This document shows positions 25,517 to 46,840 of a stretch of DNA of 59,158 bases, in pieces; the first letter of the stretch is position 1, and every line of letters starts with the position of its first letter. The notes beneath the pieces are model-generated. The model worked only from the letters and a program-made list of their open reading frames with translations. It ran no database searches and was not told the origin of the DNA. Origin of the DNA: a virus. Lineage: Duplodnaviria > Caudoviricetes. The stretch is from IMG/VR virus record IMGVR_UViG_3300035683_000206, positions 1 to 59,158 of that record; one strand, given 5' to 3'. The translations under genes were made by a program, and so were the position numbers.

Positions 25517-26890
25517 TCACGCCGCGCAGCTCCGCCGGGTGGCGATGGCGCGGAGCGAGAGCCACGCCCGATACTCATCAGGCGTTTTCGCGTTCTTGGA
25601 AAGGTTGCAGGACGGGCATGCGCAGACGATGTTCTCCGGGTAGTCCGATCCGCCCCGCGCGAGCGGCACCAGGTGGTCCGCATGGAAGTCGTCCCCCAGG
25701 TCGGCCGTGCACCAGTAGCACCGGCCGCCCTGCGCTTGGTACTGCCGCCGCACGTCGTCCAGGGTGTGGCTCCCGGGTGCGTTCTTTAGGCGGGCGCGCC
25801 GCAGCGCACGGGCGTTGTACCGCTGTTCGCGGCGCTGCTCCGGGGAAAGGGCCTTCCAGGCCGCCGCGCGGCACGCCCGGCACTTCGCCAAGAAGCCCTC
25901 CCGCTTGCTGTACGCGAAGCCAGAGGCCGGGTCCGGGTAGTGCTCGCCGCACCCCGTGCACGTCTTGCCGGTCTCTCGGGCTTTCGCCGCGATCCGCTCC
26001 AGCTCGCCTGGCCGCGCCAGCCGTTCCAGCCGAGCCGCGGTCGTGCATGGAGTGCACCAGGTGTTGAGCCCGTCGAACATCCTCGCGCTCACTGCGAAGC
26101 ACTCTGCGGGCTTGCGGGCCCCGCACCGCCGGCACTCCTTGCCGTTCGCCTGCCGATCCGCGATGATCCGCGCCCGCTCCGCCTCGCGGGCGGCCCGGCG
26201 GGCCGCGATCTCTTCCGCGGGCACCCGGCGGCGCCTCGCGTCGGCCGCGCAGCACGCCCGGCACCTCGCCTCATACCCCTGGCGTCTGCAGCGGTAGAAG
26301 CCAGCCGCCGCGTCCGGGTAGTGCACCCCGCACTTCCGGCACGTCTTGCCCGCGGCAGGGGGCCGGACGGGGCCCTGCGCCGCCCGCCTCCGACTGCACG
26401 CGATGCACCGCCCCTGCAACCCGTCGCGCGCGCCGACGTCACGGTGGAAGGCCGCCGCCGCGTCCGGGTAGTGGACCCCGCACCCGGGACAGGTCTTATT
26501 TGTGGTGGCTTGGGCTTCGCGGTTGCGCAGCTCGTAGCGGACCCGGTGCGCTCTGCGCGCCTCGCTCATACACTCCCTACACCAGCTCGCGAGGCCGTCA
26601 CGGCCCTTCGCCTGCCGGTGGAAGCCCGCCGCCGGGTCCGGGTAGAGCGTTCCGCACTTCGTGCAAGTCTTGCCCGCCACACGCTCCGCCGCCCGGCGCG
26701 CTGCCCGCTCCGCAGCGAGTCCGGCACGGCCAGGTCCGCCCGCCTTCGACGCCGCGGCGCAGCAGGCGCGGCAATGGCTCCTGAGACCGTCCCGCTTGTC
26801 GGCGGCCTTGTGGAATCCTGCCGCCGGATCCGGGTAGTGCACCCCGCACCCGGTGCACGTCTTGCCTACGACCGCGGCCGGCGCGGTCAA
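25517..26890 (-). CDS. HNH endonuclease with six N-terminal Zn-ribbon repeats
   Basis: 6x KxCxxCG...F...G....CxxC; C-terminal CYWC...DHLVPLARGG...NIVCACPSCN; TTG start overlaps the upstream stop. Confidence 0.85.
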   Translation of the reverse strand: MTAPAAVVGKTCTGCGVHYPDPAAGFHKAADKRDGLRSHCRACCAAASKAGGPGRAGLAAERAARRAAERVAGKTCTKCGTLYPDPAAGFHRQAKGRDGLASWCRECMSEARRAHRVRYELRNREAQATTNKTCPGCGVHYPDAAAAFHRDVGARDGLQGRCIACSRRRAAQGPVRPPAAGKTCRKCGVHYPDAAAGFYRCRRQGYEARCRACCAADARRRRVPAEEIAARRAAREAERARIIADRQANGKECRRCGARKPAECFAVSARMFDGLNTWCTPCTTAARLERLARPGELERIAAKARETGKTCTGCGEHYPDPASGFAYSKREGFLAKCRACRAAAWKALSPEQRREQRYNARALRRARLKNAPGSHTLDDVRRQYQAQGGRCYWCTADLGDDFHADHLVPLARGGSDYPENIVCACPSCNLSKNAKTPDEYRAWLSLRAIATRRSCAA

Positions 26891-28164
26891 GCGGCCCTCC
26901 CTGCCTTGGCGGCGCGTCCCGCTGCACGGCGCCGCGCATTCCTGACCCTGGCGCACACCGGGCACCACCGGCCTTGTCGTACGTTGCCCGGTCTGGCGCC
27001 CCAACGGTGCCCGGCACAGCACTCCCATTCCAGGTGCGACCGGTTGTCGGCGTACGCGGTGGAGATCAGGCGCCCGCCCCGGGCCTCGGCAAGTGCCCGC
27101 AGTTCCGCGAGCGGCCCCGTCAGGTATGCAGGGGCCAGGTCCACGGCCCGCGTGCTCCAGCCGGCCGGGAGGGGCCGCCCCGCAGCGAGGAAGGCCGCTT
27201 CCACCGCCGCGCGCACCTCGCGGACCCGCCCGGCCGCGTCCACGGTGGCGAACTCCGGTACCTCCACCAGCAGCACCCCGGCCGCCGCGCACGCGCTCCG
27301 CTTCCAGGCATCCCCCTCTTGCACCCGGCGCAGGTCTGAGGCGGTGCGAGTCATGCTGCCGATCAGCCGGTAGTGCTGGGCTCCCTGGTACTCGAACGCG
27401 AGCCGCAGCGGCGCCGCGTACCCGTCCAGCTCGCGCCGCCGCGCGCCCGGCGAAGGACGCAGCCACGCGGGCCGCGTCTTCGGGAACGGGACCCCGAAGA
27501 GCTGTTCCAGGGCGGTGCGGACCATGCGCTCGGAGAGGGAGCCAGAGCAGGTCGGGCACCATGCGCCCCGAAGAATGCCGCTGGGGACCGCGCTCCAGCG
27601 GTGGCCCTCGCTGCACTCCCATTCCAGGTGCGAGTGCGTGTCAAGGTAGACGGTCGAGAGGCACCGGCCGCCCCGGGCTTCCGCAGCGCGCCGCGCGCGC
27701 TCCCACGACGCCGCGCTTGCCCCAGCCTTCGCCGTCTTGCCACCGCACCGCCTACACCACTTCCCCAGTCGCACGCTGCCGGGAATCGCGCGCCAGCGGT
27801 GCCCCACCGCGCACTCCCACTCCAGATGCGTGCTTTTGTTGACGTACTCGCTGGACAGGCACCGGCCGCCGCGGGCCGCCGCGAGCGCGTGCATGGTTTC
27901 GATGTCGAGGCGCGCGGTCCCCGCGCACTTCGGGCACCAGTTCCCCTGCTGCACGCGGTTGGGGGTGGCGCGCCAGCGGTGCCCCGCCGCGCACTCCCAT
28001 TCCAGGGGTGTTTTGGCGTTCACGTACACCGCGGCAACGCAACGGCCGCCCCGGGCCGCGGCGTATCCGTGCATCGTCTCCAGCGTCGGCCGCGCGCGGG
28101 GCACGCCCCGCCGCGTCGCGGCCGGGGGGGTCTCCCCCGGCCGCGCGACGGTCGCCTGGTTCAC
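26887..28164 (-). CDS. Zn-ribbon repeat protein with PD-(D/E)xK/Vsr-like endonuclease domain
   Basis: 4x ARGGR....Y......LEWEC..GHRW.A.P......WC..C; SERMVR...ELDGY....LAFEYQGAQHY. Confidence 0.85.
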   Translation of the reverse strand: MNQATVARPGETPPAATRRGVPRARPTLETMHGYAAARGGRCVAAVYVNAKTPLEWECAAGHRWRATPNRVQQGNWCPKCAGTARLDIETMHALAAARGGRCLSSEYVNKSTHLEWECAVGHRWRAIPGSVRLGKWCRRCGGKTAKAGASAASWERARRAAEARGGRCLSTVYLDTHSHLEWECSEGHRWSAVPSGILRGAWCPTCSGSLSERMVRTALEQLFGVPFPKTRPAWLRPSPGARRRELDGYAAPLRLAFEYQGAQHYRLIGSMTRTASDLRRVQEGDAWKRSACAAAGVLLVEVPEFATVDAAGRVREVRAAVEAAFLAAGRPLPAGWSTRAVDLAPAYLTGPLAELRALAEARGGRLISTAYADNRSHLEWECCAGHRWGARPGNVRQGRWCPVCARVRNARRRAAGRAAKAGRAA

Positions 28165-28505
28165 GAGGCCCACCGCACGCCGTCCAGCGGCCAGTGCTCC
28201 ATGATCGAGCCGACCGTCTCCAGCCCCGAAAACCCGCTCCGCTCGTACGGGTGCAGGGACGATTCCGGCACCTTGCGCGAGGGGCCCACCTCGCGCTCGC
28301 AGAACTCCTGCACCTGCTCCGGCTTCCCGAACACGCCGACGCGGTCCGGCCGGTGCTGCGCATTCTGGAGCCGCCATTCCCCGCGGCGCCCCCACGGGGC
28401 CGCCTGGACGTAGACCGCCCCGCGGCGCCCGGTCACAAGCACGTTGCCGGCCGTTACGTCCAGCCCCGCCGCTTCCATCGCCTCCACCACCTGAGTCTTG
28501 CGCAT
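28161..28505 (-). CDS. Hypothetical protein
   Basis: GGAGG RBS; GTGA coupling to the nuclease gene. Confidence 0.65.
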   Translation of the reverse strand: MRKTQVVEAMEAAGLDVTAGNVLVTGRRGAVYVQAAPWGRRGEWRLQNAQHRPDRVGVFGKPEQVQEFCEREVGPSRKVPESSLHPYERSGFSGLETVGSIMEHWPLDGVRWAS

Positions 28506-28639
28506 CGGATTCGCCTCCGCTTGCCCGGGGCGCCGCCGCTGCGCATATTCAACGCGGCGCGGCCCTCGGGTCGTTGCTGGGGGCGGTGCGTCGGGGTTCT
28601 CTGGCAAGGGGAGCCGGCGCATCGCCCTTCGTTTTGCCC

Positions 28640-28693
28640 GCAAGCAACGTTGCTTGCGTAACGTAATTTACTTTACGTGTCGTTCGCTGTCAA
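28640..28693 (-). promoter_or_regulatory. Promoter/operator of the nuclease operon
   Basis: Minus-strand TTGACA(28693-28688)-N17-TAAATT; GTAACGTAA at 28658; 18-bp palindrome GCAAGCAACGTTGCTTGC at 28640-28657. Confidence 0.7.
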
Positions 28694-28881
28694 GAGATCG
28701 GTAGGTGTGTATGCGCGATCCGATTCCTCTGCCTATGGGCGGTCGTGACTCAAACGGCGCGGGTCCTGTCGCATCTGGTGCGGCCTCCCCGGTGCTCCAC
28801 GGCACCAAGCGAGATAGCTTTAAGGGGCCGCGGGAATGCGTCCCGCGGCCCCTTCCCCCCCTCTTCCTTCCAAGGCACACT

Positions 28882-29082
28882 ATGAACCGACGCACCACCC
28901 TGGCCGTCCTCGCCGCGCTTGGGCTCCTCGCCGCATGCGCGGAGCCGTCCGGCCCCGAAACCTCGTCCGCGCGTGCACCCCGCAGCTCGGTCGCGGACAC
29001 AGCGCAGCGGACCGTGACCACGACAACCACTGACACAACCTCCGCAGGGCGGGGTGGGCCGGTGGTCGGGAGCGGGAACTAG
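28882..29082 (+). CDS. Small lipoprotein / candidate signalling propeptide 1 (66 aa)
   Basis: MNRRTTLAVLAALGLLAAC lipobox; Thr-rich linker; C-terminal RGGPVVGSGN. Confidence 0.8.
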   Translation: MNRRTTLAVLAALGLLAACAEPSGPETSSARAPRSSVADTAQRTVTTTTTDTTSAGRGGPVVGSGN

Positions 29083-29894
29083 CCGCGCGCGTGCATTTCC
29101 CGCAATAGTTTCGCGGCCGTCCGGCGGGTGGACTCCTCCCCGTTCCGGGCGGCCGTCTTACGGGCCAGCGCGACGGCGCTTCGCGCGCCGCGGCGATCCT
29201 CCCCTAGGAGGTGCAGCGCAAGACCGAGAGAGTACCACCCCCACGCACTATCGCAGCCAGCGCCGGCAAGATCCTCGCGCAACGCCAGCACCGCAGCAAG
29301 CGCCCCGTCGCGCTGGCCGCCAACGGCGAGGGAGGACGCGAGGTTCGCCCGCGCCGTCAGGCGCAGCGCCGGGTCTGTGACGCGCTCCAGTTCCCCCGCG
29401 TACACGTACGCCGCTTCGCGGGGGCGGCCGGTGGTGAACAGGCCCCATGCGCGGTCTATCGCGAGCCGCGACGGCTGGCGCGCCGGAGCGTAGAAGCCCG
29501 CCGCCTTCTCGAAATAGCTTTCGGCGGTGCGGGTGCTCCCGGCGACCATGTGCAGCGTGTAAAGGTCGTGATACACAGCCCCCCGGCGCTCGGCGCCTGC
29601 AGGGGATTCCGCAAGCGCCTGCGCTCGCCGGAGTGCCCGCGCCCCGCGCCCAGGCTCGCCCTGCTCATAGGCCGCCCACGCGGCGACCTGCCGCGCTCGG
29701 CAAGCCGACAATGTGTCCCCCTCCAGCTCCGCCGCTGTCGCGGCGGCCAGCCCCAGCCGCTCCGCTTCCGCGTGGGCGCACCGGCTCTGCGCATCAAGGG
29801 CGAGCGCCAGGGCGCCCGCGGCCGTCTCTGCTGCCTGCATCGTCTCTGCGGGTGGGAGTGGCCCCGGCCGCTCGCATGGGCGGCCGGGGGTCAA
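29079..29894 (-). CDS. TPR-like protein 1 (candidate peptide receptor; start may be 29840)
   Basis: Ala-rich helical repeats, GAVYHDL motif; convergent with and overlapping the lipoprotein stop. Confidence 0.75.
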   Translation of the reverse strand: MTPGRPCERPGPLPPAETMQAAETAAGALALALDAQSRCAHAEAERLGLAAATAAELEGDTLSACRARQVAAWAAYEQGEPGRGARALRRAQALAESPAGAERRGAVYHDLYTLHMVAGSTRTAESYFEKAAGFYAPARQPSRLAIDRAWGLFTTGRPREAAYVYAGELERVTDPALRLTARANLASSLAVGGQRDGALAAVLALREDLAGAGCDSAWGWYSLGLALHLLGEDRRGARSAVALARKTAARNGEESTRRTAAKLLREMHARG

Positions 29895-29905
29895 CGTGTC
29901 GTCCG

Positions 29906-30340
29906 CTAGGCCGCTTGGGAAGGGTAGCGGCCGTGCGTGGTGAGGAAGGCGCGCACCGTGTAGGCGTCCGCCTCGCTGATCTGCACCGGGTCGAACGTCT
30001 CCGGGCTCACGACGCGAGAAAGCACGTCCAGCACCACCGGGGGCACCGCCACACCGTCCGCGCGCAGGGAAAGGGCGACGACAGCCTCACGGAACGCGTC
30101 CCATTCGTCAAGCAGCTCCACCATCCCGTATGCCACGTCGGGCGCCATCGGCAGATCCGAGGCGTGCAGGTATCCCGCCGAGACCGCACCCTGGGACGCG
30201 AGCGTAACGTGCGCCATCGCGTCGAAGGGTCGAAGCTTGTTCCCGAAGCTGTTGGCGATGTCGTCCAGACTCCACCCCGCCTCAAGCTGGGCAATCGCCG
30301 CCCCGGTGCCGGGCCGGGCACCCGGCGTCGTCGCGGTCAC
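29906..30340 (-). CDS. Hypothetical protein
   Basis: GTGA-coupled to the upstream gene, GGAGG RBS. Confidence 0.65.
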   Translation of the reverse strand: MTATTPGARPGTGAAIAQLEAGWSLDDIANSFGNKLRPFDAMAHVTLASQGAVSAGYLHASDLPMAPDVAYGMVELLDEWDAFREAVVALSLRADGVAVPPVVLDVLSRVVSPETFDPVQISEADAYTVRAFLTTHGRYPSQAA

Positions 30341-30843
30341 GCTGCACCCTCCGGCATGCGGACGCCACGGGTGCGGAGGAACCGGGTCAGGTCGGCCGCT
30401 TCCTCCGGGCCCAGGTCGGCGCCGCCCGCGGCGAGCGCGGACGCAAGGAGCCGGACGGCCGCGGGGGGGATCCGCCGCGCCTGCGGGCGTGCCTCGATGT
30501 ACAGGCCGTGCGCATCGGTCCAGGCGTCCACCACGTCCGTGAAGTCCTCCCCCAGGCGCCGCAGCAGCCCCCCAAGCTCGTAAGCCGGGAGCGCCGCCGC
30601 AACGGCCTCCATCAAGCTGCTTTTTCTGACGGGCTCCGTGTGAAAGTCCGCCTCTTCCAGCACCGCCCCGAGTAGGGACAGGGCGAGAATCCGCTCCCCG
30701 AACTGGTGCAGGCCGAACTCCGCGGCGTCCCGCTCCACCCGCTGCAGCTCCGCGGCGGGGTCGGCCAAGGCGGCGGCCAGCGCGTCCCGCTCCTCCGTGG
30801 GGGCTTCGGTCTGCGTGGTGTCCTGCGTCGTGTGTCCAGCCAT
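30337..30843 (-). CDS. Hypothetical protein
   Basis: AAGGAG RBS before ATG 30843. Confidence 0.7.
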   Translation of the reverse strand: MAGHTTQDTTQTEAPTEERDALAAALADPAAELQRVERDAAEFGLHQFGERILALSLLGAVLEEADFHTEPVRKSSLMEAVAAALPAYELGGLLRRLGEDFTDVVDAWTDAHGLYIEARPQARRIPPAAVRLLASALAAGGADLGPEEAADLTRFLRTRGVRMPEGAA

Positions 30844-30981
30844 GATTGCGCTCCTTGCGCGGTCCCGGCGGCCCACCGGCGGGGGGTCGTGGCGCTACGG
30901 GTGTGAATGCTTGAGGGGGCCGGGCGATAGTCGCCGTGGCTCCGGGCCCCCGCCTTCAACGCTCTTGCGCGGGCGAGCGTT

Positions 30982-31040: not shown

Positions 31041-31322
31041 GTGGATTTTAAGACAGCAGCGGGTACTCTTACGGCGCCCGCGGACGTGAGCAACGCGATC
31101 TTGGCGGACGCGTTTGGCGTGTCTCGCGTGACAATAACTCGCTGGCGCAGCGATGAATACAGCGAGGACGCGCGCGAGGGGTGGGAGCAGGTCGTTGCCG
31201 CTCTCGCGGAGACCGGCGCGGCTAGGTACGAAGAGCGTGCCGCCGAGCTTCGCGCGCTCGCGGCCGAACTGCGAGCAACCACGCATACCGAAGGGAGACC
31301 GAACGACCATGCGGGCGAGTAG
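31041..31322 (+). CDS. Small HTH regulator (Cro/XRE-like)
   Basis: SNAILADAFGVSRVTITRWR; divergent from the minus-strand operon. Confidence 0.7.
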   Translation: MDFKTAAGTLTAPADVSNAILADAFGVSRVTITRWRSDEYSEDAREGWEQVVAALAETGAARYEERAAELRALAAELRATTHTEGRPNDHAGE

Positions 31323-31914
31323 ATTCCACCTTGCGGCGGCCGTCGCCGTGGCGCTGGCCGCCGGGTGTGGGGACGGCGGGACCGGTCCGCAGCCGCGGGT
31401 CCGGCTCGACTTCGCGAGCCTCGCCGGGGAATGGGTGCTCACGTCGGACGTGACGGGGCGGGTGCCCTGCACGGTGGACCACTGCGCGGTAGTCTCCGGC
31501 GGCAAGGAGTACGACCGGCAGCAGCGGCGCATCCGCGCGCGGGTGACGGTCGGGGCCCCAGCGGAGCAGTCCGCGGAGACCGAGAACGGCGGAAGCTTCT
31601 ACACGGTGTCCCGCCACCCGGCTAACTACCTTGGCACCGATAGCATTTACCTGCTGGAGAGGAATGGCTCCGGGCGTATCGTGGGTCAGGTGAAGGCCAT
31701 CAACGTAAGCACGTCGCTCACAGTTCAAGCGCAGTCCACGCCGGGCGGAGCCCCTACGGCCCGCGTGCACGTGTACCTGCGCCCGTATAGCGGGCCCTCA
31801 ACCAGTTACGACGCATCCCTGCAGGGAGAGGGCTCGCAGCCCCGCCGCCTGGTGGGCAGCGGGCCCGGTGACGGCCCCGCCAACGTCGGCGCGTGGACGA
31901 TGGAGCGGCCGTAG
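31309..31914 (+). CDS. Lipoprotein (lipocalin-like/beta-rich; possible superinfection exclusion)
   Basis: Signal peptide with LAAGC lipobox; LAGEWVL and terminal GAWTMER. Confidence 0.75.
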   Translation: MRASRFHLAAAVAVALAAGCGDGGTGPQPRVRLDFASLAGEWVLTSDVTGRVPCTVDHCAVVSGGKEYDRQQRRIRARVTVGAPAEQSAETENGGSFYTVSRHPANYLGTDSIYLLERNGSGRIVGQVKAINVSTSLTVQAQSTPGGAPTARVHVYLRPYSGPSTSYDASLQGEGSQPRRLVGSGPGDGPANVGAWTMERP

Positions 31915-32074: not shown

Positions 32075-32494
32075 ATGTCTCTGCGCTGGCGGCCTCGCCT
32101 CAGCTTCCCCGACCTGGTGCTCACGCTGTCGCAGCCGATGCGGCCGCCCCGGCCGACGTCGCAGGGGATCGGCGCCGGGCGCGAGAAGAGCGCGGCCGGC
32201 ATCCCCTCCGTGTGGCCGGGGCGCCGCGAGCGGGGGTCCGTGCTGGTGCTGCAAGGCGTGGAATCCGAATGGCCCGCCGTGGTGGCGTTCATGGAGCGCG
32301 CCGTGCTGGGGGAGCCGTTCACGCTGAAGCCGGACCGGGACCAGGCGGCCGTCTATTCCGTCTATCTGGAGCGGCCGTCTGCAGAGGACCGGATCGCCCC
32401 CGACGATGGGCAGATCCGCGGGATGTGGACCTACACCATCGAAGTCGTGACGGTGGATGGTGCGCCCCTCCACATTGCCTACTTCGGGCTGTAG
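32075..32494 (+). CDS. Putative distal tail protein
   Basis: First structural gene after TMP and the insertion; size. Confidence 0.6.
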   Translation: MSLRWRPRLSFPDLVLTLSQPMRPPRPTSQGIGAGREKSAAGIPSVWPGRRERGSVLVLQGVESEWPAVVAFMERAVLGEPFTLKPDRDQAAVYSVYLERPSAEDRIAPDDGQIRGMWTYTIEVVTVDGAPLHIAYFGL

Positions 32495-32496
32495 CT

Positions 32497-35400
32497 ATGG
32501 CTGACTTCACCTTCACCGTCTACCGCGAGGACGGCAGCGAGCTGTTCCAGGTGGGCACGGCCGCCGACCATCCCGCCCCGTACCTGCACCTCCCGGGCGA
32601 GTACGACGCGGGGGAAATCGACCTGCTGAACGGCCGGGCGCTACTTGGGCAGATCGGCGCCCGCGTGATTGATCCGGCGCTCGGGGCGGACCACACCGAC
32701 CGCTTCCTGACCCGCCTGCTGGGCATCCCCGCCGGCCAGCCGGGCGCCGGGCATTCCGCCGTCAACGGCCGCCGGGCCACGTTCCGCCGGGTGGGGCCGG
32801 ACGGCGCGCGCCTGCTGCTGGAAGGCAGCGTCGGGGGGGTGGAGCTGAGCGAGTCGCGGGCGGGCTTCCGCTTTACGCTGCTGGACTCGCGGGCGGGGGA
32901 GCTGAAAGCCAAGGCGTTCCAGCTCGCGGGAACGTCTACGGTCTGGCCGCGGGGGGTGCTGGATGGATACGGGCGGCTCCCCGGCGGCGGATGGCTGGCG
33001 CCGCCCACGCGGCCGGCGTCGGGCACCGTTCGCACCACCGGGATTGCGAACTGGCGAATTGTGAAGGTGGACCGGGCGCGGGTGCTGAAACATGACCTGA
33101 TCTTGACCGACGCGATGCGCGAGAGCGTGCGGCCCGCGTGGTCCGCGGAGCGCAGCCGCTGGGAGGTGCCGGGGGTGGTGGTGCGCTGGCGGGTCGTGGG
33201 GGGGCAATGGGAGACGATCCCCCACATGGAGGTTTCGGACCCCGCGTACCGCTCCGGGATTCGCGGCGTCAGCCTCTTCGACACGGACCCCAGCGAGATC
33301 AAGGACCACGACGGCCGCGCCGTCCCCGCGGACCTGATCGACTTCGTCCACCTGCGCGCGGACGCGGGCGAGCCGCTGCCGGAGGCAGGTGACCGCGTCG
33401 AAATCATCCTGCTGCACGCGGGCGCGCCCAGCGAGGCGTACCCGTTCCATTGGGAGGGGACGGCCGGGGAGCTTCTGCACGGGCTCCACACGGGCGCCTT
33501 TGGTGGGCCGGCCGTGCCGGTGGACGCGGCGCGGTTCATCGGCGCCGATGCGCTCCCGGTCATGCGGACGCCGCTCCGGCTGCGAATTACAAAGGCGGTG
33601 GACGACCGCAAGGCGTTCGCGGAGCGCATCTACAAGGCGCTGCTCGCGGCGCCCGCGCTGGACGCGGAAGGGCGGATCTCGCCGGTGGTGGGGTCGCTGC
33701 CGGGCGTGGACGCCGAGCTGCCGCAGGTGGACGACACCAACGCGAAGCCCATTGCGGGGTGGAGTCACCCCCTCGCGGGGGCGGTAACGGTCGTCTCCGT
33801 GAAGTACGGCCGTGATTACCTCATCCCCGCCGAACAGGACCCGACCGGCGCGCGCTCCGGCGGGGACGGCATTGCGACGCAGGAAGTGGAGGTGCGCAGG
33901 CCGGCCCCCCCGGACCTGCTCGACCTGCTGGGCGAGCGCGTGCACGAAGTCGGCGGGACCGACTTTTTCCGGGCGCTCGGCGGGGCCGAAGGCCGGCCGG
34001 TCACAGGAGACGTGCTGGACGAAGCCGGGGCGCAGCGCGCGATTGCGCTCGGCTACGAGATCCTTGACCGCTGGGTATTCGGGGGCCAGACGTCGTTCTG
34101 CCAGGTGGCGGCGGCCGACTTCCCCGGGCTGCGGGAAGGTTCGTGGATCTTGGACGCGCGGAGTTGGCGCCCCGTGTACCGTCACGGTCGGCGTGGTTCG
34201 GCCGCGACGCTGGCTCAGGTGGCTGCGGTCCGCGCCGTCTCCGATACGCAGCTCGGCTTACGGCTGATCGACGCGGGCCCGGCGGACCAGCCGCTCGACC
34301 CCCCGCAGCTCGGCGCGGCGACGGTCGGCGAGGATGGGGTGTTGAGTGCCGCGGTGGACGCCGTGGTGGCCGGCGCGGAGGCGGCGGTGGAATATGCGCT
34401 GTCGCCCGCACTGCCGGGGCAGCACTCTGGTCTCTGGACCTTTCTTGGGCGGTTGGGCGCGCCGGGGGTGCTCCGCTCCGCCCCCCTTCCGGCCGGGGTC
34501 ACGGCGTGGGTGCGGGCGCGAAGCGTAGCACTGGGCCGCCGCCGGTCCGCGTGGGTGGTCGCTGCGCTGTTCGCGGTCCCCGCGGTGCCGCGGTTGACGT
34601 CGTTCGGGGTGGAGCTGGAGGATGGTGGCGTGCGCTTTTCGTGGACCTCGAACGGGTTCACCGGCGCGGTGCGGGTGCATTACGTCGTTCGAATCGCGGG
34701 CTCTAGCGCTCCTCTCGCCGCCTCTGTAGATGCGCCCGCCGGGCCGGGTACCGTCTCCCTGGCGGTAGCGGTCCCGGCCGGGGCAGAGATCGCAGCCGAG
34801 GGCGAGCCGTGGACGTGGTGGAGCGGCGCGGCGGTCACCGGCGAGGCGGGGTTGCGCATCCCGGCCAGCGCCGCGCGCCCGGCCGACGATTCCGCGTACG
34901 CGATCCTGCAAGCGCGCGTCGTGGAGGACCGCGACACGGAGGTGGTCGTCGAGGTGCGGACGGGCCCGCTGGTGGACGAACTTCAAATTTTCGTCCAGCT
35001 GGTGCCGACGCCGTATATCGGCCGGACCGACCCCAAGGTCACCGGCACCGCACGGCCCGGGGCGGTCGTCGTGGACACCCGCGCGCGCGTCACCCTGCCG
35101 AAGCCGAGCGGCCGCTACCTCCTCCTGGTCTCGGTTGTCGCGCTCGATGCCGATCTCCGGGAGCGGGGCTCCAGGGAGCTCTCGATCCCCGCGGCCGAGG
35201 TGCGCCTCGGCGAGCGCGTCGCCGCCGCGGTGGTGGGGGACGCGGCCGACGTCACGGTGTCGCTGGACCGCCCCAGCCTGAGCGCCTTCCCGGTGGAGTG
35301 CGGCGTGTACCTGGAGGACACCGACGGGGTCCCCCTGGTACGTCACACCTTCACCGCCGACGGGCCGCGCGCGATCGGGCCCGCCGACTACCCGGAGCTC

Positions 35401-37449
35401 GGCGCGATCCCGCTGCCGGAGCGGAGGCCGCTCGACGTGATCGCCGCCTTCGAGGCGGTGGACGGCTCCCTCCGCTTCGCCCGCGCCAGCCCGAACCGGG
35501 ACCCGCTCCCCTGGGGGGCGCCGAGCGCCGACGACTACCGGCCGGACGCGCGCATCGTCCTGCCGTACGACCCGGACACGGACGCGATCTACGTGCGGCT
35601 CGGCGACGGCCGCGTGCGGACCTACACCGCGTTGGTGGGCGGGGGCAGCTGGGTGTACATCCGGGGCACCACGACGCTCGACGACGGCAGCGTGGAGGAC
35701 ACGCTCCGCCCCGGGGAGACCAGCACGCCCTACGTGGTCGAGTACGAGGGAGGCGGCGCGCGCCTGGAGTACTTCCGCGCTCCCCTGCACGGCGTCGCCC
35801 CGCAGGCGCCCTCCGCCCGGGGCTACTTCGACCTGGTGGCGAACCGCACCGCGGCGGCCGCAGGCGCCGACCTGGCGAGTCCCGTCGGCGAGGACGTGGG
35901 GCTCCGCGTGCGCTTCGCCGCGGACGCCGATGCGCCGATCTATACCCTCGTCTCCGCCGACAACACGCCCCTGTACCTGCCGAGCGGCTCGCGCGTGACG
36001 CCGGCGGCGCTCTATGACGACGGACCTGGCGCGCCGCTGGCCAAGCTCGCGGCCGTCGCGCTCCGGAGCGGGCAGATCGTGCACCTGGAGATCCAGGCGT
36101 ACGGCCGCGACAGCGGTGTGTCGGGCCCCTGGACCCCGCTGCCGCTCTCGCTGATGGAGCGCGCCCGCGGCGGGAGCCTGGAGGGCACGTACGACCCCGC
36201 CACCGGCCACATCACCGCGGAAGCGATCGGGGGGACCCACCAGCAGAGCGCGCTGGTGCTGGTGGCCGACAACGAGGCGATGGTGGGCGCCATGACGCAG
36301 GTCCTCGCCCTCACCGAAGGGGCCGTGCAGCGCCCGGTCTTCGCGGTCCCCGCGGCCAAGCGGCAGGGCACCTGGCACCTCCGGATGATCTGCAACAACG
36401 GCCCGGTGATCGCAGGTGCCCCCTCCGGGCTCGACGGCGACGCGCTCACCGCGCGCGTGGTGCTGCCGGACCCGATCCCCACCGTCCGCAAGGTGCCCTC
36501 GCAGAGCGGGTCCACGGGCCTGCTGAGCCTGGAGATCACCGACCTGTCGGGGCGGCGGGGGGCGGTGCGCTTCAAGACGCACGCGGGCGGCGGGGACGTG
36601 AGCTTCGCCGACCCCGGGGACGGCAGCTGGAGCGACGACCCGACGGCGCCCTACGCCGCGAGCGTCTCCATCGACCCCAAGCACGGGGCGTGGATCGCGG
36701 GCGCCATCGCGTACACGGCCCACGACGGCGCACAGCGCTGGCTGATCGAGACCCACCACTTCGACCCGGACCAGTGGGCGCGCGTCGAAAACCTGATGGC
36801 CACCTTCGACGCGTCGCACCAGGTGCTCCCCAGCGCCGGGGGCGACGAGGACACGGACGTCGTCTACTTCACCGTCGGCGTGGGCGCCGAGCCCGCCGAC
36901 CCCACCCCGAGCGCGCACAACGGCTTCGTGGTCGGCCGCTCGGGCTCGGTCAACACGGGCGTGGTGTGCGGGCCTGGCAGTACGGCCGTCGTCAAGGCCC
37001 GCGGGTGGAACAGCGTCACGGGGATCGCCCCCGCCGAGATGGTCAAGCGCATCGAGGAGCGGAACGGGGCGACGGTCGCCACGCCGGCGCCGCCGTTCGT
37101 CACCTCCGCCCGGGCCACGGCGACGGCCGGCAACACGCTCTGTGGCTCCATCGTGCACACGATCTACCTGTCGGTCTCGGACACCGCGGCCGCGGGCTAC
37201 GGGGTCGTCGTCGAGGAGTGGCGCACCGACGTGGAAGATTGGCAGGCCGTGCACGTGGGCATCCTCCCGCTCACCACCACCCAGGTGGCCCACAACGTGG
37301 CCGGGTACCGGATCACCCTCTCCCCCGACTACACCTCGCGCCGCGCCTGGACGTACCGCGTCCGCGTCGTCCGGACCTCGGACGGGGGGACCGCGTCGCC
37401 CCCGCAGGCGTGCGCCCCCGTCGAGCAGCTCGTGGCGGCCTGCTCATGA
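32497..37449 (+). CDS. Large tail tip / baseplate hub-central fibre protein (1650 aa)
   Basis: Position; many beta-rich Fn3/Ig-like segments (WVRARS, YRVRVV). Confidence 0.75.
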   Translation: MADFTFTVYREDGSELFQVGTAADHPAPYLHLPGEYDAGEIDLLNGRALLGQIGARVIDPALGADHTDRFLTRLLGIPAGQPGAGHSAVNGRRATFRRVGPDGARLLLEGSVGGVELSESRAGFRFTLLDSRAGELKAKAFQLAGTSTVWPRGVLDGYGRLPGGGWLAPPTRPASGTVRTTGIANWRIVKVDRARVLKHDLILTDAMRESVRPAWSAERSRWEVPGVVVRWRVVGGQWETIPHMEVSDPAYRSGIRGVSLFDTDPSEIKDHDGRAVPADLIDFVHLRADAGEPLPEAGDRVEIILLHAGAPSEAYPFHWEGTAGELLHGLHTGAFGGPAVPVDAARFIGADALPVMRTPLRLRITKAVDDRKAFAERIYKALLAAPALDAEGRISPVVGSLPGVDAELPQVDDTNAKPIAGWSHPLAGAVTVVSVKYGRDYLIPAEQDPTGARSGGDGIATQEVEVRRPAPPDLLDLLGERVHEVGGTDFFRALGGAEGRPVTGDVLDEAGAQRAIALGYEILDRWVFGGQTSFCQVAAADFPGLREGSWILDARSWRPVYRHGRRGSAATLAQVAAVRAVSDTQLGLRLIDAGPADQPLDPPQLGAATVGEDGVLSAAVDAVVAGAEAAVEYALSPALPGQHSGLWTFLGRLGAPGVLRSAPLPAGVTAWVRARSVALGRRRSAWVVAALFAVPAVPRLTSFGVELEDGGVRFSWTSNGFTGAVRVHYVVRIAGSSAPLAASVDAPAGPGTVSLAVAVPAGAEIAAEGEPWTWWSGAAVTGEAGLRIPASAARPADDSAYAILQARVVEDRDTEVVVEVRTGPLVDELQIFVQLVPTPYIGRTDPKVTGTARPGAVVVDTRARVTLPKPSGRYLLLVSVVALDADLRERGSRELSIPAAEVRLGERVAAAVVGDAADVTVSLDRPSLSAFPVECGVYLEDTDGVPLVRHTFTADGPRAIGPADYPELGAIPLPERRPLDVIAAFEAVDGSLRFARASPNRDPLPWGAPSADDYRPDARIVLPYDPDTDAIYVRLGDGRVRTYTALVGGGSWVYIRGTTTLDDGSVEDTLRPGETSTPYVVEYEGGGARLEYFRAPLHGVAPQAPSARGYFDLVANRTAAAAGADLASPVGEDVGLRVRFAADADAPIYTLVSADNTPLYLPSGSRVTPAALYDDGPGAPLAKLAAVALRSGQIVHLEIQAYGRDSGVSGPWTPLPLSLMERARGGSLEGTYDPATGHITAEAIGGTHQQSALVLVADNEAMVGAMTQVLALTEGAVQRPVFAVPAAKRQGTWHLRMICNNGPVIAGAPSGLDGDALTARVVLPDPIPTVRKVPSQSGSTGLLSLEITDLSGRRGAVRFKTHAGGGDVSFADPGDGSWSDDPTAPYAASVSIDPKHGAWIAGAIAYTAHDGAQRWLIETHHFDPDQWARVENLMATFDASHQVLPSAGGDEDTDVVYFTVGVGAEPADPTPSAHNGFVVGRSGSVNTGVVCGPGSTAVVKARGWNSVTGIAPAEMVKRIEERNGATVATPAPPFVTSARATATAGNTLCGSIVHTIYLSVSDTAAAGYGVVVEEWRTDVEDWQAVHVGILPLTTTQVAHNVAGYRITLSPDYTSRRAWTYRVRVVRTSDGGTASPPQACAPVEQLVAACS

Positions 37450-44584: not shown

Positions 44585-44821
44585 ATGCAGAAACTGCGCA
44601 GCCTCGTAGCCCTGGCGGCCGTTCTGGCGGCCAGCGCATTCGGTGTCGCCTGCACGGACCAGCACGAACCCCTGTCGCCAGGTCCCGCTCGAAGGGCGCT
44701 GGTCACAGACTCCACAACTATCCAGAAGCCGTCGCCGACGTCCGGCGCCACAACTGAATGCGTCTGCCGCGATGGGGGAGGGGTCGTCAGTTCTGGGAAT
44801 AAAGACTGCCCCTGCTCCTGA
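44585..44821 (+). CDS. Small lipoprotein / candidate signalling propeptide 2 (78 aa)
   Basis: AGGAG RBS; MQKLRSLVALAAVLAASAFGVAC lipobox; C-terminal CVCRDGGGVVSSGNKDCPCS. Confidence 0.8.
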   Translation: MQKLRSLVALAAVLAASAFGVACTDQHEPLSPGPARRALVTDSTTIQKPSPTSGATTECVCRDGGGVVSSGNKDCPCS

Positions 44822-44826
44822 TCGGC

Positions 44827-44857
44827 GCGAAGGGGAGGGCTCAGCCCTCCCCTTCGC
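44827..44857. terminator. Hairpin between the convergent peptide and TPR genes
   Basis: GCGAAGGGGAGGGC-TCA-GCCCTCCCCTTCGC. Confidence 0.6.
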
Positions 44858-46277
44858 TGTTCTGCAGGGAGCGAAGTGCCTGCACGAGCTCCTCACAGAC
44901 GGCCTGATCAAGCGAGTGGGTGACTGAGTCGCCAGATCCCCGCCCGTGCTCAACCGCACCCGGTAACTGCGCGCGAGCCAGCAGCTCCTCCGACTGGGTA
45001 GCGTAGCCGTCCTGGCTCAGCTCGCGGGCAAGGTGGAGGGCCGCGCGGCCGGCCGCGCCCGCACGTGCGGAGTCCCCCACCAGCAGTGCGGCCTCTGCGA
45101 GGTCTAGCAGTGCGGGCGCGGCCCGGCCCCGGAATGATGCACGGGTGACCGCTGCCCACGCCTCCCCCCACAGGCCCCGGAAGATGCCCTGGTCGTCACA
45201 ACCTGCCGCCGCCCGGACGGTAGCACAGAGCAGCAGCGTCCACGACTCAGGGTCGGACTGTGCGGCGGGAAGCTTGAGCAGTGCGCCGAAAACCGGGAGC
45301 GCCTCGTGAAACTGGCCGCGGTCTGACCAGTGATAGGCGATGTTTTGTGAAAGGCGTATCAGCCGTGGGTTGGCATCGCCGTATGCTCTCCGTGCTCGGC
45401 GCGCATACTCGAGGACGTCATCGTGACGGTTCTGCACTACCGCCAAAGCGCTCAGGTCGTGGCAGGCCATCCCCTCGAGTTCGCTCAACCCGCGCTCGCG
45501 GGCATGGTCCTCCGCATCTCGGAAGCAGTCACGAGCTCTCGTGTACTGCTCGCGCTGCAGGTGCACCCACCCCATCCCCAGCTTAGCACGCACCAGAGCT
45601 TGCTCCTCGCCGACTCTGCGAGCGAGCTCCCGCGCCCGAGCATACCACGCCTCCGCCCGGTCGAATCGCCCAGCCTCTCGCGCGCTCCGCGCAACAGTCA
45701 AGGCTAGAGCGGTACCTGAGACTTCTAGGTCTGCAACCTCGGCGCCGGCCCGCTCGCTTTCTCCATCGGTCAGGCCGAGGAGGACAGCCTTGACCTCCCG
45801 GAGGAGCTCGGGAAACCATCGAAGTACCCAATCATCCCCAACCTCTTCCAGTGCCTTCGCGACGTGTACCACCCATTCCTCTCCGCGCTCAGTCCAATCG
45901 GCGCGGTTGAACACACCGACGAGAGCAAAGGTGATGCAGATCGCCTTGAATGCGCCTGGGGGAACTTTATAGGCGTTCTCACTAAGGTTTATTTCAGCGA
46001 CCGCCTCCATTGTCATCAGCCGGAGGGCATAGACGCTCAGGTGCGGGCGCAGCCGGAGAATAGATCGGCAGCCGGCTGGCTTCGGCACGAGCAGAGCGAG
46101 CCGGCCGGGGGGGAGGTTCTTGTCCTGTTTGACCGTCAAGCCAAAAGCATCCTGAATCGCATGCCGGGCATCGGCCGTCAACCGGTCTAGGCCATACCGC
46201 GGCCAAATGCCCTGAACAGTGTCAACGAGACGAAGAACTTGATGGCTGAGAATCGCGGTCTCGGGCTGCACTTGCAT
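44841..46277 (-). CDS. TPR protein 2 with N-terminal degenerate ImmA/IrrE-like domain
   Basis: Clear TPRs (AEAWYARA, ARDCFRDA, GMACHDL); N-terminal FGLTV...ILRLRPHLS....RLMTMEAVAE; overlaps the repressor 3' end. Confidence 0.78.
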   Translation of the reverse strand: MQVQPETAILSHQVLRLVDTVQGIWPRYGLDRLTADARHAIQDAFGLTVKQDKNLPPGRLALLVPKPAGCRSILRLRPHLSVYALRLMTMEAVAEINLSENAYKVPPGAFKAICITFALVGVFNRADWTERGEEWVVHVAKALEEVGDDWVLRWFPELLREVKAVLLGLTDGESERAGAEVADLEVSGTALALTVARSAREAGRFDRAEAWYARARELARRVGEEQALVRAKLGMGWVHLQREQYTRARDCFRDAEDHARERGLSELEGMACHDLSALAVVQNRHDDVLEYARRARRAYGDANPRLIRLSQNIAYHWSDRGQFHEALPVFGALLKLPAAQSDPESWTLLLCATVRAAAGCDDQGIFRGLWGEAWAAVTRASFRGRAAPALLDLAEAALLVGDSARAGAAGRAALHLARELSQDGYATQSEELLARAQLPGAVEHGRGSGDSVTHSLDQAVCEELVQALRSLQNSEGEG

Positions 46278-46737
46278 CCGGCTGCCCCTCCTCGGCATGG
46301 AGCCGCAGTAACTCGGAGATGTAGGCTTTTACGTCCGACTCGGACTCTGCGTCCAATGTCTCTTCATCGGCCAAAGTGCGCAACGCGGCCGCTAGATCCG
46401 CGTATGTGACCCTGCCTCCGAAGGCCTTGATCGCACCTCTGCGGGCAAGCACTTGGAACGCGCGGATTAGCTGCTGGCCACGGTTGTCCGGGTAGTTCGC
46501 CCACACGCCCCACTCTGACCCCTCGCCGGCCTCCCGCAACAGCCCTCTCCTGCGCGCCCAGTCCTCGATCCGCTTCAACGCCCAATCTTCAGGAACTGAC
46601 CCGCTCGCGAAGTTCCCAACGAGCGTATGACTCACCTCGCCAATCTCCTCAGCGAGCCTGCGCCGCGAAGCCTTGGGTTCGGAGAGGGCCTGTTGCACAA
46701 GAGGGCGAAGCAGGGCGGCGCGCTGTTGGCGAGTCAC
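46222..46737 (-). CDS. CI-like repressor (XRE HTH)
   Basis: SRRRLAEEIGEVSHTLVGNFASGSVP...LKRIEDW; divergent from the early operon. Confidence 0.75.
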   Translation of the reverse strand: MTRQQRAALLRPLVQQALSEPKASRRRLAEEIGEVSHTLVGNFASGSVPEDWALKRIEDWARRRGLLREAGEGSEWGVWANYPDNRGQQLIRAFQVLARRGAIKAFGGRVTYADLAAALRTLADEETLDAESESDVKAYISELLRLHAEEGQPDASAARDRDSQPSSSSSR

Positions 46738-46744
46738 GTGTGGC

Positions 46745-46815
46745 TTGACAGTCGTTCCAAGGGCCGTTACAATCGTTCCAGGGCGCAATGCGCATCGTGC
46801 GCATCGTGCGCATCG
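46745..46815 (+). promoter_or_regulatory. Early lytic promoter and operator repeats
   Basis: TTGACA-N17-TACAAT (46745-46773); TCGTTCCA(A)GGGC x2; TGCGCATCG x3 (46789-46815). Confidence 0.8.
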
Positions 46816-46840
46816 GGGCCGAATGGTACAGGAGGGAGGC

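What the first reader, a model, noticed from the sequence alone, without database searches (positions are those of the whole stretch)
28882..29894. Second TPR / lipopeptide pair with a related peptide motif inside the tail-operon island
Seen: a 66-aa lipoprotein ending RGGPVVGSGN converges on, and overlaps by 4 bp, a TPR-like gene. The motif aligns with RDGGGVVSSGN of pair 2, and both TPRs share G.x.x.HDL...Y...A...Y followed by RL...A..W/F. The precursors are otherwise dissimilar, so the conserved part is likely the functional peptide. Inference: two paralogous channels with different peptide specificity, or an eavesdropping module; this TPR has no obvious effector domain.
Basis: partly seen in the sequence, partly recalled or inferred. 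Interest (0 to 1): 0.85.

Follow-up and report, generated by a model that had tools for sequence, protein, structure and literature searches.

The report
Phage lipopeptide paired with TPR receptor
A prophage from a high-GC soil-crust bacterium carries two related gene pairs, each a small secreted lipoprotein next to an all-TPR protein shaped like the peptide sensors of Bacillus phages, so it may be a peptide signalling system outside the bacteria where such systems are known.

The parts
28822..28854 (.). Perfect 14-nt inverted repeat (5-nt loop), 27 nt upstream of the lipoprotein start. It may be a U-tail-less terminator of the minus-strand TPR transcript, or a 5'-UTR hairpin or operator of the lipoprotein gene.
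   Evidence: 100% complementary arms. RNA fold -31.5 kcal/mol on the + strand and -35.8 on the - strand, z -4.2 and -3.8, with 0 of 200 shuffles folding as well.
28882..29082 (+). Small lipoprotein-type propeptide A, 66 aa. It has the signal peptide MNRRTTLAVLAALGLLAA, the lipobox Cys19, and a Thr/Ser/Pro/Ala-rich 47-aa mature part.
   Evidence: GC3 is 0.82. BLASTP against the second G001 lipoprotein gives E 2e-4. Conserved residues are encoded by different codons in the paralogues, for example Ser AGC versus TCT.
29047..29079 (+). C-terminal motif GRGGPVVGSGN, the proposed ligand part of the propeptide.
   Evidence: In the co-fold the only confident interface residues of the partner are 56-66.
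29079..29840 (-). TPR-only protein of 253 aa (P0001). The longest ORF runs to 29894 (271 aa). It forms 13 helices, about 6 TPR-like pairs, and has no signal peptide and no extra domain.
   Evidence: family start; pLDDT 94.7, pTM 0.89.
29906..30340 (-). orf144, directly upstream on the same strand as the TPR gene (65-nt gap). It is probably co-transcribed and is a candidate output partner. Function unknown.
   Evidence: GC3 0.86. No match in Pfam, PHROGs, PADLOC or NCBIfam.
30337..30876 (-). orf179, whose 3' end overlaps the orf144 start by 4 bp. It is the first gene of the putative orf179-orf144-TPR253 operon. Function unknown.
   Evidence: GC3 0.88. No family match.
44585..44821 (+). Paralogous lipoprotein-type propeptide B, 78 aa, ending in CRDGGGVVSSGNKDCPCS. 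An AGGAG Shine-Dalgarno sequence lies upstream.
   Evidence: BLASTP against the G001 orthologue gives E 3e-10 at 40% identity.
44827..44857 (.). Perfect 15-nt inverted repeat at the junction of the convergent stop codons of pair B, overlapping the TPR485 stop codon. It resembles a bidirectional terminator.
   Evidence: -39.4 and -36.8 kcal/mol, z -4.9 and -6.3.
44841..46277 (-). Paralogous receptor candidate TPR485 (478 aa from M8; the longest ORF runs to 46298). It has an N-terminal domain of about 190 aa with unknown fold, plus a C-terminal TPR domain (44973-45713) homologous to the whole of TPR253.
   Evidence: The model of the N-terminal domain failed (pLDDT 41.9).

Best explanation
The finding is one of two paralogous two-gene modules carried as accessory cargo by this prophage. 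Each module has a small propeptide with a lipoprotein-type export signal, and a cytoplasmic TPR protein whose concave groove binds the conserved C-terminal ~10 residues of that propeptide (here ...GGPVVGSGN). The most likely working mode resembles Rap/Phr and other RRNPP systems. The propeptide would be exported through Sec and signal peptidase II. Its disordered Thr/Ser/Pro-rich stalk would be cut outside the cell, and the C-terminal peptide would accumulate with the density of cells carrying the phage. The peptide would then be taken up again and lock the TPR solenoid around itself. The 253-aa receptor has no DNA-binding or enzymatic domain, so like Rap it would act by holding or releasing a protein partner. 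Candidate partners are the two unknown proteins encoded just upstream on its strand, or a host protein. The convergent, overlapping 3' ends, with the only strong hairpin lying beyond the lipoprotein gene, suggest added antisense or transcription-interference coupling between the two genes, as recalled for prgQ/prgX. Shown here, by computation only: the genes and the overlap, the homology of the two receptors, the conservation of the pairing and of the motif in another provirus, the TPR fold and its likeness to RRNPP peptide-binding domains, and a predicted groove-peptide interface. Inferred only: lipidation and export, proteolytic release, re-import, the output and the biological decision controlled.
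For: (1) The pairing is conserved. All 3 family TPR genes whose surroundings I could read (2 in the window, 1 in provirus G001) have one or two small lipobox ORFs converging on the 3' end, with spacing of -4, +19 and +15 nt.
(2) G001 and the window are otherwise unrelated. Of 7 tblastx HSPs of at least 55 bits, 6 lie in the TPR gene and 1 lies elsewhere, and the terminase has no match in G001. The pair therefore moves as a module.
(3) The receptors are homologous: hhalign 99.2%, E 7.6e-20, and the family HMM hits only these two window sites.
(4) The precursors have propeptide anatomy. The signal and the C-terminal motif are conserved while the middle is variable with indels. Conserved residues use different codons, so selection acts on the protein.
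(6) Co-fold: the verdict is that the model supports binding but does not show it. The score is 0.83 and the best of 3 controls is 0.01. This mark was reached by 58 of 80 solved complexes and by 2 of 110 mismatched pairs; these counts hold only roughly here because my own alignments were used. The runs agree in at least 34% of contacts, and the partner's pLDDT is at least 44. The partner's interface is residues 56-66. The TPR contacts run from residue 48 to 238 and include family-invariant P123, D129 and W200 and near-invariant H91, L126, A230 and E235.
(7) There is precedent for the unusual signal. In RRNPPA systems, 211 of 2,734 propeptides with a predicted route are SPII/lipoprotein type and are enriched on mobile elements, and the pheromone usually sits at the C-terminus (PMC9765709, passages read).
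(8) The pair meets the size, adjacency and secretion-tag criteria of the generic RRNPP signature (PMC10075063, passages read).
Against: No experiment or expression data exist. The host is unknown, so an uptake route cannot be checked. At 72% GC the host is unlikely to be a typical member of the Bacillota, the only phylum in which such systems are described in the papers I read.

A lipobox means that the product would be membrane-tethered, so an extra cleavage has to be postulated.

The 253-aa protein has no output domain. Nothing links it to orf144 or orf179 beyond gene order, and neither resembles the N-terminal domain of the paralogue.

The co-fold may pass through likeness to the many solved TPR-peptide complexes, and the partner's own fold is uncertain.

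The predicted contact positions are not more conserved than the rest of the family: mean 0.53 versus 0.527, permutation p 0.49. Between the two orthologues of pair B the figures are 21 of 35 against 105 of 216 identical, p 0.15.

Lipoprotein A is only weakly related to the others: BLASTP E 0.12 against B, and no hit from the mature-part HMM. Trained on the G001 peptides, the motif PSSM ranks it 7th among Gly-rich noise.

Pairs B and G001 have Cys residues flanking the motif. These could form disulfide loops outside the cell and so point to an extracytoplasmic role for the motif.
Confidence: 0.4

Rival explanations
1. The two proteins do bind, but not as a signal and its receptor. The small lipoprotein would be a membrane-acting effector for lysis, abortive infection or exclusion, in the manner of small bacteriolytic or exclusion lipoproteins (recalled: entericidin, T5 Llp). 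The cytoplasmic TPR would hold its C-terminus before export, acting as a chaperone, brake or antitoxin, or would sense a phage cue and release it.
For: The co-fold interface is the same as for the best explanation. The module sits in accessory islands of two unrelated proviruses, as defence and exclusion cargo often does. In G001 it lies at the provirus edge next to low-GC cargo genes. The Cys residues flanking the motif in B and in the G001 peptides suit a folded extracytoplasmic loop. The TPR has no output domain, which fits a pure binding or holding role.
Against: No PADLOC, PHROG, Pfam or NCBIfam family of defence, lysis, spanin or exclusion proteins matches either partner. The only matches are weak signal-peptide-type hits and one generic PADLOC 'TPR' hit for the paralogue. 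The mature lipoprotein is low-complexity and Thr/Ser/Pro-rich with no amphipathic or hydrophobic segment, so it looks like a spacer rather than a membrane-damaging peptide. Convergent transcription is unusual for toxin-antitoxin pairs (general knowledge). The conservation pattern, with only the signal and the C-terminal 10 residues conserved, is that of a propeptide.
Confidence: 0.25
2. The lipoprotein and the TPR do not touch. The lipoprotein would be a lysogenic-conversion or superinfection-exclusion surface protein. The TPR would be an unrelated scaffold or regulator, and the two genes would stay together only because their convergent, overlapping transcripts regulate each other or because they were acquired together.
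For: Stops overlap or lie close together, and strong hairpins sit at or beyond the junction. No terminator-like site lies between the pair A genes. The groove contact positions show no excess conservation. Phage lipoproteins are common exclusion factors (general knowledge).
Against: The co-fold scores 0.83 against 0.01 for the best control, and the interface is confined to the conserved motif. The pairing is kept at 3 of 3 readable loci, across receptors that have diverged to about 21% identity. The motif is kept through codon changes.
Confidence: 0.15
3. The small ORF of pair A is not a gene, or its likeness to the other lipopeptides is a chance product of Gly/Ala-rich translation of 72% GC DNA. 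On this reading only pair B and G001 are real modules.
For: BLASTP of A against B gives E 0.12. The mature-part HMM does not find A. A ranks 7th of 105,100 with the PSSM trained on G001. The Shine-Dalgarno sequence is weak (AAGG). No homologue of the 66-aa ORF could be sought in the large libraries.
Against: The signal and lipobox are canonical and begin at an ATG. GC3 is 0.82, in a 436-nt gap between minus-strand genes that would otherwise be empty. A and B are reciprocal best motif matches within the window. BLASTP against the second G001 lipoprotein gives E 2e-4. The position and orientation relative to a homologous TPR gene are the same. The co-fold picks out its last 11 residues.
Confidence: 0.07

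Closest known systems
Rap-Phr cassettes of Bacillus and their phages and plasmids (RRNPP family)
   Different: This protein lacks the N-terminal 3-helix-bundle effector domain of Rap; the alignment begins at about Rap residue 93. There is no specific sequence relation: the family profile scores Rap at E 8.2e-5, weaker than generic TPRs. The genes converge and overlap instead of being co-directional (the Rap-Phr order is recalled). The signal is lipoprotein-type. The proposed ligand is longer and Gly/Val-rich. The element has 72% GC and an unknown host, probably not Bacillota.
Arbitrium (AimR-AimP) of SPbeta-like phages
   Different: AimR has an N-terminal HTH domain and controls aimX (abstract of PMC13220667, search listing only), and no such domain or target is seen here. 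There is no sequence similarity: no match in 50,697 phage records. The gene orientation and the type of signal peptide also differ.
PrgX/PrgQ of pCF10 and convergent Rgg/SHP pairs
   Same: A peptide gene and a receptor gene are transcribed towards each other with overlapping transcripts. Enterococcal pheromones are linked to lipoprotein precursors. Both points are recalled and were not checked in a call.
   Different: Those receptors carry HTH domains, and their peptides are exported by PptAB rather than Sec (PMC10075063 passages). In the enterococcal case the pheromone is the lipoprotein signal peptide itself, whereas here the conserved part is the C-terminus.
Generic TPR_12 / kinesin-light-chain-like and MalT domain III TPR solenoids
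   Different: Those are domains of larger proteins with other partners. Here the TPR is a stand-alone 253-aa protein in a family of 11 sequences, always about 222-309 aa long, and it is tied to a lipopeptide gene.

Membership tests
RRNPP(A) peptide quorum-sensing systems | Small propeptide (10-100 aa) directly adjacent to the receptor gene | tested here: met
   The 66-aa ORF overlaps the receptor gene's 3' end by 4 bp. The criterion is taken from PMC10075063 (passages).
RRNPP(A) peptide quorum-sensing systems | Propeptide carries a Sec secretion signal (SPI in the strict class; SPII/LIPO accepted in the 'relaxed' class) | tested here: inconclusive
   A lipobox signal was found with my own regular expression. 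SignalP was not available. The signal is of SPII type, which 211 of 2,734 RRNPPA propeptides are predicted to use (PMC9765709).
RRNPP(A) peptide quorum-sensing systems | Receptor of 250-500 aa that matches TPR HMMs (E < 1e-5, coverage > 65%) | tested here: inconclusive
   The length of 253 aa fits. Pfam-A gives no TPR hit for this protein at E <= 0.1, so it would escape HMM-based detectors. The TPR nature is shown by the model and by the family profile against PDB sequences. The paralogue does match TPR_12 at E 4.9e-9, but with partial coverage.
RRNPP(A) peptide quorum-sensing systems | Homology to a known receptor subfamily (Rap, Rgg, NprR, PlcR, PrgX, AimR, ComR) | tested here: not met
   The family profile gives Rap (6t3h) only E 8.2e-5, far below generic TPR proteins, and no other RRNPP receptor appears among the best 60 shown. 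One weak library hit named NprR has E 2.5e-4 with 11% coverage. The structural likeness is high but does not prove common descent within this family.
RRNPP(A) peptide quorum-sensing systems | Mature peptide binds in the TPR groove of the cytoplasmic receptor | tested here: inconclusive
   Prediction only. The co-fold score is 0.83 and the best of 3 controls is 0.01; the mark was reached by 58 of 80 solved complexes and 2 of 110 mismatched pairs. The runs agree in at least 34% of contacts, and the partner's pLDDT is at least 44. The pass may reflect likeness to solved TPR-peptide complexes.
RRNPP(A) peptide quorum-sensing systems | Peptide is released outside the cell and re-imported (Opp), with a density-dependent response | not testable with these tools
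   The host genome is not available, and no RNA or peptide data exist.
RRNPP(A) peptide quorum-sensing systems | Host or element belongs to the Bacillota (Firmicutes) | tested here: inconclusive
   The host is unknown. The provirus has 72% GC. The papers read describe the family in Firmicutes only (PMC9765709 and PMC10075063 passages).
Bacterial lipoproteins (SPII substrates) | Basic n-region, hydrophobic core and lipobox [LVI][ASTVI][GAS]C within the first ~35 residues | tested here: met
   MNRRTTLAVLAALGLLAA|C (the pattern was recalled from PROSITE PS51257). Weak signal-region hits to NCBIfam lipoprotein families lie below their cut-offs.
TPR superfamily (TPR_12 / KLC-like) | Tandem helix-turn-helix repeats forming a right-handed solenoid, with sequence-profile similarity to TPR proteins | tested here: met
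   13 helices, pLDDT 94.7. Foldseek gives 41 PDB matches at E <= 0.001, all of those listed being TPR or related repeat proteins. The profile scores consensus TPR at E 4.6e-24.
Phage spanins, or Llp/Cor-type exclusion lipoproteins | Sequence membership in a described phage lipoprotein family | tested here: inconclusive
   PHROGs gives no family at E <= 0.1 for lipoprotein A, and only two weak hits (E 0.07-0.09) for B. These families are short and diverse, so a miss is not decisive.

The most novel reading that the evidence does not exclude
This would be the first peptide-based, Rap/Phr- or arbitrium-like communication module of a phage that infects a high-GC bacterium outside the Bacillota. 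It is built from a new TPR-only receptor family and a lipoprotein-anchored propeptide. One prophage carries it as two paralogous channels with related ligands (GGPVVGSGN and GGGVVSSGN), which could allow cross-talk or eavesdropping. The module is exchanged as a cassette between unrelated prophages.
Probability: 0.3. Interest if true: 0.85.

Novelty: new variant of a known kind. Interest (0 to 1): 0.66.

Why it matters
In the papers read here, peptide signalling through cytoplasmic TPR receptors (RRNPP, arbitrium) is described only for Firmicutes and their mobile elements. It underlies phage lysis-lysogeny decisions, conjugation, sporulation and virulence. A structurally equivalent pair in a 72% GC soil-crust prophage would have several implications.

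- Its receptor escapes Pfam TPR models, so signature-based detectors would miss it. That would show the logic is more widespread than current searches reveal.
- It would give a minimal, 253-aa, domain-free receptor on which to study how peptide binding becomes an output.
- It would offer a natural two-channel case for testing specificity and cross-talk.

If the pair instead proves to be a chaperone-effector or exclusion module, it would still define a new, very rare phage cargo family.

Tried and rejected
Context of relatives. The 8 viral scans returned only one other record, G001, found. The 2 metagenome scans and the 2 genome scans returned nothing. Two further attempts failed because alignment A1 had no conserved stretch. 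The test of whether relatives P0002-P0011 and P0015 also have a lipopeptide neighbour therefore could not be run.

Other collections. GenBank phages and plasmids hold no match to either TPR protein.

Word-based homologue searches. One found only the protein itself. With the family profile, the search found only P0010 and P0011 plus three weak TPR hits.

Host identification. It failed. Terminase and minor-head matches are remote (27-30% identity) and point to phages of both Gram-negative and Gram-positive hosts. The exonuclease had no match. Further Pfam scans gave no lysis or host-type clue.

N-terminal domain of the paralogue. The AF2 model was unusable (pLDDT 41.9), the Atlas gave no usable hit, and the domain shows no likeness to orf144 or orf179. 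The idea that pair A encodes this domain as a separate gene is therefore not supported.

Defence or lysis families. PADLOC, PHROGs and NCBIfam gave nothing meaningful.

Groove conservation. The tests were null.

Mature-part HMM. It did not find lipoprotein A.

Fold and Atlas look-alikes. The viral fold library gave only generic TPR proteins of giant viruses. Atlas look-alikes of TPR253 were generic TPR_12 clusters.

Sequencing runs. No RNA holder is listed. The single DNA holder may be the source sample.

Literature. Searches for RRNPP-type systems outside Firmicutes returned nothing relevant beyond the two papers cited.

Rejected ideas. A Tat signal was considered because A has an RR, but B and the G001 peptides have none. 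An o-spanin was considered, but there is no i-spanin partner, the ORF is a lone plus-strand gene, and PHROGs has no match. A motif-like site RPGGGVVCSGA at 45631-45663 (-) is out of frame with TPR485 and was taken as chance.
Full report
WHAT IS THERE. The window is a whole IMG/VR provirus record of 59,158 bases with about 72% GC. The finding lies in a minus-strand island (25517-30876) set between plus-strand genes: head genes on one side (terminase 9964-11793, portal-like, minor head protein), and tail-like or virion genes on the other. From right to left the island holds:
- orf179 (30337-30876);
- orf144 (29906-30340, 4-bp overlap with orf179);
- the TPR gene;
- the small plus-strand lipoprotein gene;
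- orf160 (28161-28643), with its own promoter-like site at 28693-28665;
- two HNH/EndoVII-like zinc-ribbon genes.

The 66-aa ORF at 28882-29082 has a canonical lipoprotein signal (MNRRTTLAVLAALGLLAA|C). Its mature part is 47 aa, rich in Thr, Ser, Pro and Ala, and ends in GRGGPVVGSGN. Its stop codon and that of the TPR gene share the palindrome CTAG at 29079-29082.

THE TPR PROTEIN. The longest ORF is 271 aa, but the gene callers and all relatives start at M19, giving 253 aa at 29079-29840. Pfam-A, PHROGs, PADLOC and NCBIfam give nothing for it. An exhaustive HMMER search of 1.84 billion representatives found 12 proteins at E <= 0.001. These are the protein itself, 10 relatives at E <= 1e-10 (222-309 aa, 32-47% identity) and one marginal hit. 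The family is very rare, and all its members are about this size, so it is a stand-alone TPR.

THE SECOND PAIR AND THE HOMOLOGY. Lipoprotein B (44585-44821, +) ends in CRDGGGVVSSGNKDCPCS. It converges, 19 nt apart, on a 485-aa ORF (44841-46298, -; probably 478 aa from M8) with TPR_12. BLASTP between the two TPR proteins is weak (E 0.011). The profile comparison is decisive: hhalign probability 99.2%, E 7.6e-20, with 245 columns covering the whole of TPR253 against residues 196-445 of the longer protein. The family HMM hits only these two places in the window, at E 2.8e-88 and 4.7e-20. The longer protein has an extra N-terminal domain of about 190 aa. It could not be modelled (pLDDT 41.9) or matched.

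AN INDEPENDENT LOCUS. The 485-aa protein has a 50%-identical relative, P0014, at the edge of another provirus, G001 (41 kb). G001 shares essentially nothing else with the window. Of 7 tblastx HSPs of at least 55 bits, 6 lie in this gene, and its terminase does not match. Fifteen nucleotides after the TPR stop in G001, two tandem small lipoprotein genes converge on it. They end in CRDGTGVVSGGG and GCGDNGGTVGSGGDC.

So all 3 family TPR genes whose surroundings I could read have convergent lipopeptide genes, and the module moves between unrelated prophages. B and its G001 orthologue are clearly homologous (E 3e-10, 40% identity). Identity is concentrated in the signal and the C-terminal motif, with indels between them. 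Identical residues are often encoded by different codons, for example Arg CGC versus AGG and Ser TCG versus AGC, so the protein is under selection.

Lipoprotein A is a more distant member:
- BLASTP gives E 2e-4 against the second G001 peptide and E 0.12 against B.
- An HMM of the mature parts of the other three does not find it.
- At the motif level, A and B are reciprocal best sites among 105,100 six-frame positions.
- A PSSM trained on the G001 peptides alone ranks A only 7th.

The homology of A therefore rests on the combination of signal, motif, position and partner, not on any single statistic.

DO THEY BIND? One co-fold was allowed: TPR253 (11-row alignment) with the mature lipoprotein A (residues 20-66, 4-row alignment). 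The verdict was that the model supports binding but does not show it. The score was 0.83 and the best of 3 controls was 0.01. The mark was reached by 58 of 80 solved complexes and by 2 of 110 mismatched pairs, and these counts hold only roughly here because my own alignments were used. The runs agree in at least 34% of contacts, and the partner's pLDDT is at least 44. The confident interface of the partner is residues 56-66, exactly the conserved motif. On the TPR side the contacts run along the groove from residue 48 to 238. They include family-invariant P123, D129 and W200 and near-invariant H91, L126, A230 and E235.

There are caveats. TPR-peptide complexes are common among solved structures, so the pass may come from likeness. 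The contact set as a whole is not more conserved than the rest of the protein (0.53 versus 0.527, p 0.49). It is not significantly more conserved between the pair B orthologues either (21 of 35 against 105 of 216 identical, p 0.15).

HOW IT MOST LIKELY WORKS. The anatomy has five features:
- a small exported precursor with a variable spacer and a conserved C-terminal decapeptide;
- an adjacent cytoplasmic TPR solenoid of the size and shape of the RRNPP peptide-binding domain;
- a predicted groove-peptide interface;
- carriage on a prophage;
- duplication into two related channels.

This is the anatomy of Rap/Phr-type and arbitrium-type systems. The generic signature of such systems is a small Sec-tagged propeptide, a 250-500 aa TPR receptor, and adjacency (PMC10075063, passages). 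Lipoprotein-type signals are a known minority among their propeptides (211 of 2,734) and are enriched on mobile elements, and the pheromone usually lies at the C-terminus (PMC9765709, passages). I therefore propose this sequence: export and lipidation, extracellular release of the C-terminal peptide, re-import, and binding to TPR253. Lacking any output domain, TPR253 would act like Rap through a protein partner. The candidates are orf144 and orf179, which lie upstream on its strand.

The transcription layout adds a second layer. Pair B has a perfect 15-nt hairpin exactly between the convergent stops (44827-44857; -39.4 and -36.8 kcal/mol). Pair A has no room for one. Its only strong hairpin (28822-28854; -31.5 and -35.8 kcal/mol) lies beyond the lipoprotein gene, and no terminator-like site lies between the genes. 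The TPR transcript probably reads antisense through the whole lipoprotein gene, and the lipoprotein transcript probably reads into the TPR gene. That would make expression of the two genes mutually antagonistic. Everything after 'the genes exist, are homologous, are paired and are predicted to dock' is inference.

RIVALS. (a) The two proteins bind, but as a holding factor or antitoxin and a membrane-acting lipoprotein effector (exclusion, lysis or abortive infection). The Cys residues flanking the motif in B and in the G001 peptides would suit an extracytoplasmic disulfide loop, and the module sits with other cargo. However, no defence, lysis or exclusion family matches, and the mature peptide looks like a spacer. 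(b) They do not bind, and are linked only by transcription or by joint acquisition. (c) ORF A is a chance ORF. I give these 0.25, 0.15 and 0.07, against 0.4 for the signalling reading.

COMPARISON AND NOVELTY. It works like an RRNPP system, but I do not file it as a member. Specific homology to any known receptor subfamily was tested and not met. The receptor escapes Pfam TPR models. The host is unknown, and at 72% GC it is probably not a typical member of the Bacillota. I found no description of such a pair in GenBank phages or plasmids or in four literature searches. I rate it a new variant of a known kind, of high interest if confirmed, resting at present on two proviruses and on predictions.

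LIMITS. None of the 10 relatives' contexts could be fetched despite using every scan. No RNA data were available.

Noticed in passing
window 28822-28854: A perfect 14-nt GC-rich inverted repeat lies 27 nt upstream of the lipoprotein A start. It folds strongly on both strands (z about -4). It may end the minus-strand TPR transcript after that transcript has run antisense through the lipoprotein gene, or it may be an operator or 5'-UTR element.
   Followed up: partly
window 44827-44857; L003 1409-1437 and 1722-1764: A perfect 15-nt hairpin sits exactly between the convergent stops of pair B. G001 has hairpins at the end of its TPR gene and between its two tandem lipoprotein genes.
   Followed up: partly
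L003 1459-1686 (-) and 1782-1964 (-): In provirus G001 the lipopeptide gene is tandemly duplicated, including its leader and Shine-Dalgarno region. This gives one TPR gene two different candidate peptides (…RDGTGVVSGGG and …GDNGGTVGSGGDC).
   Followed up: partly
window 25517-27622 (-) and 26887-28395 (-): Two long ORFs with repeated treble-clef/zinc-ribbon units and HNH/EndoVII-like or DUF4379/CapR-like domains overlap by about 740 nt in different frames. One start is probably mis-set. They look like homing-endonuclease-type cargo next to the module.
   Followed up: no
window 31309-31914 (+): A third lipoprotein of 201 aa (MRASRFHLAAAVAVALAAGC...) has no family match. It lies just downstream of the island, at the start of the tail-side genes.
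   Followed up: no
window 32212-37449 (+) and 49528-56685 (+): Two giant ORFs of 1745 and 2385 aa, with coding-like GC3 of 0.85-0.89, have no Pfam or PHROG match at all.
   Followed up: no
window about 48100-48450, within ORF 47774-48505 (+): A short-period tandem repeat encodes AAWAAAGAAARDAAWDAAG-type repeats in one frame and GCGVGCGGGCGE-type repeats in another. The ORF matches a PHROG of unknown function (phrog_3416).
   Followed up: no
window 46222-47016 (-): The ORF upstream of TPR485 on the same strand overlaps its start. By eye it contains a helix-turn-helix-like stretch (…RRRLAEEIGEVSHTLVGNF…), but no Pfam match. It may be a DNA-binding partner of pair B.
   Followed up: no
window 2172-4214 (+) and 9964-11793 (+): Two different ATPases both hit terminase-large-subunit PHROGs. 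The first also resembles HerA/FtsK-type ATPases (DUF87).
   Followed up: no
L003 2228-3681 (+): Next to the G001 module lie two low-GC genes (about 58% GC): a 309-aa protein and a 174-aa multi-pass membrane protein. They look like separately acquired cargo, possibly a defence pair.
   Followed up: no
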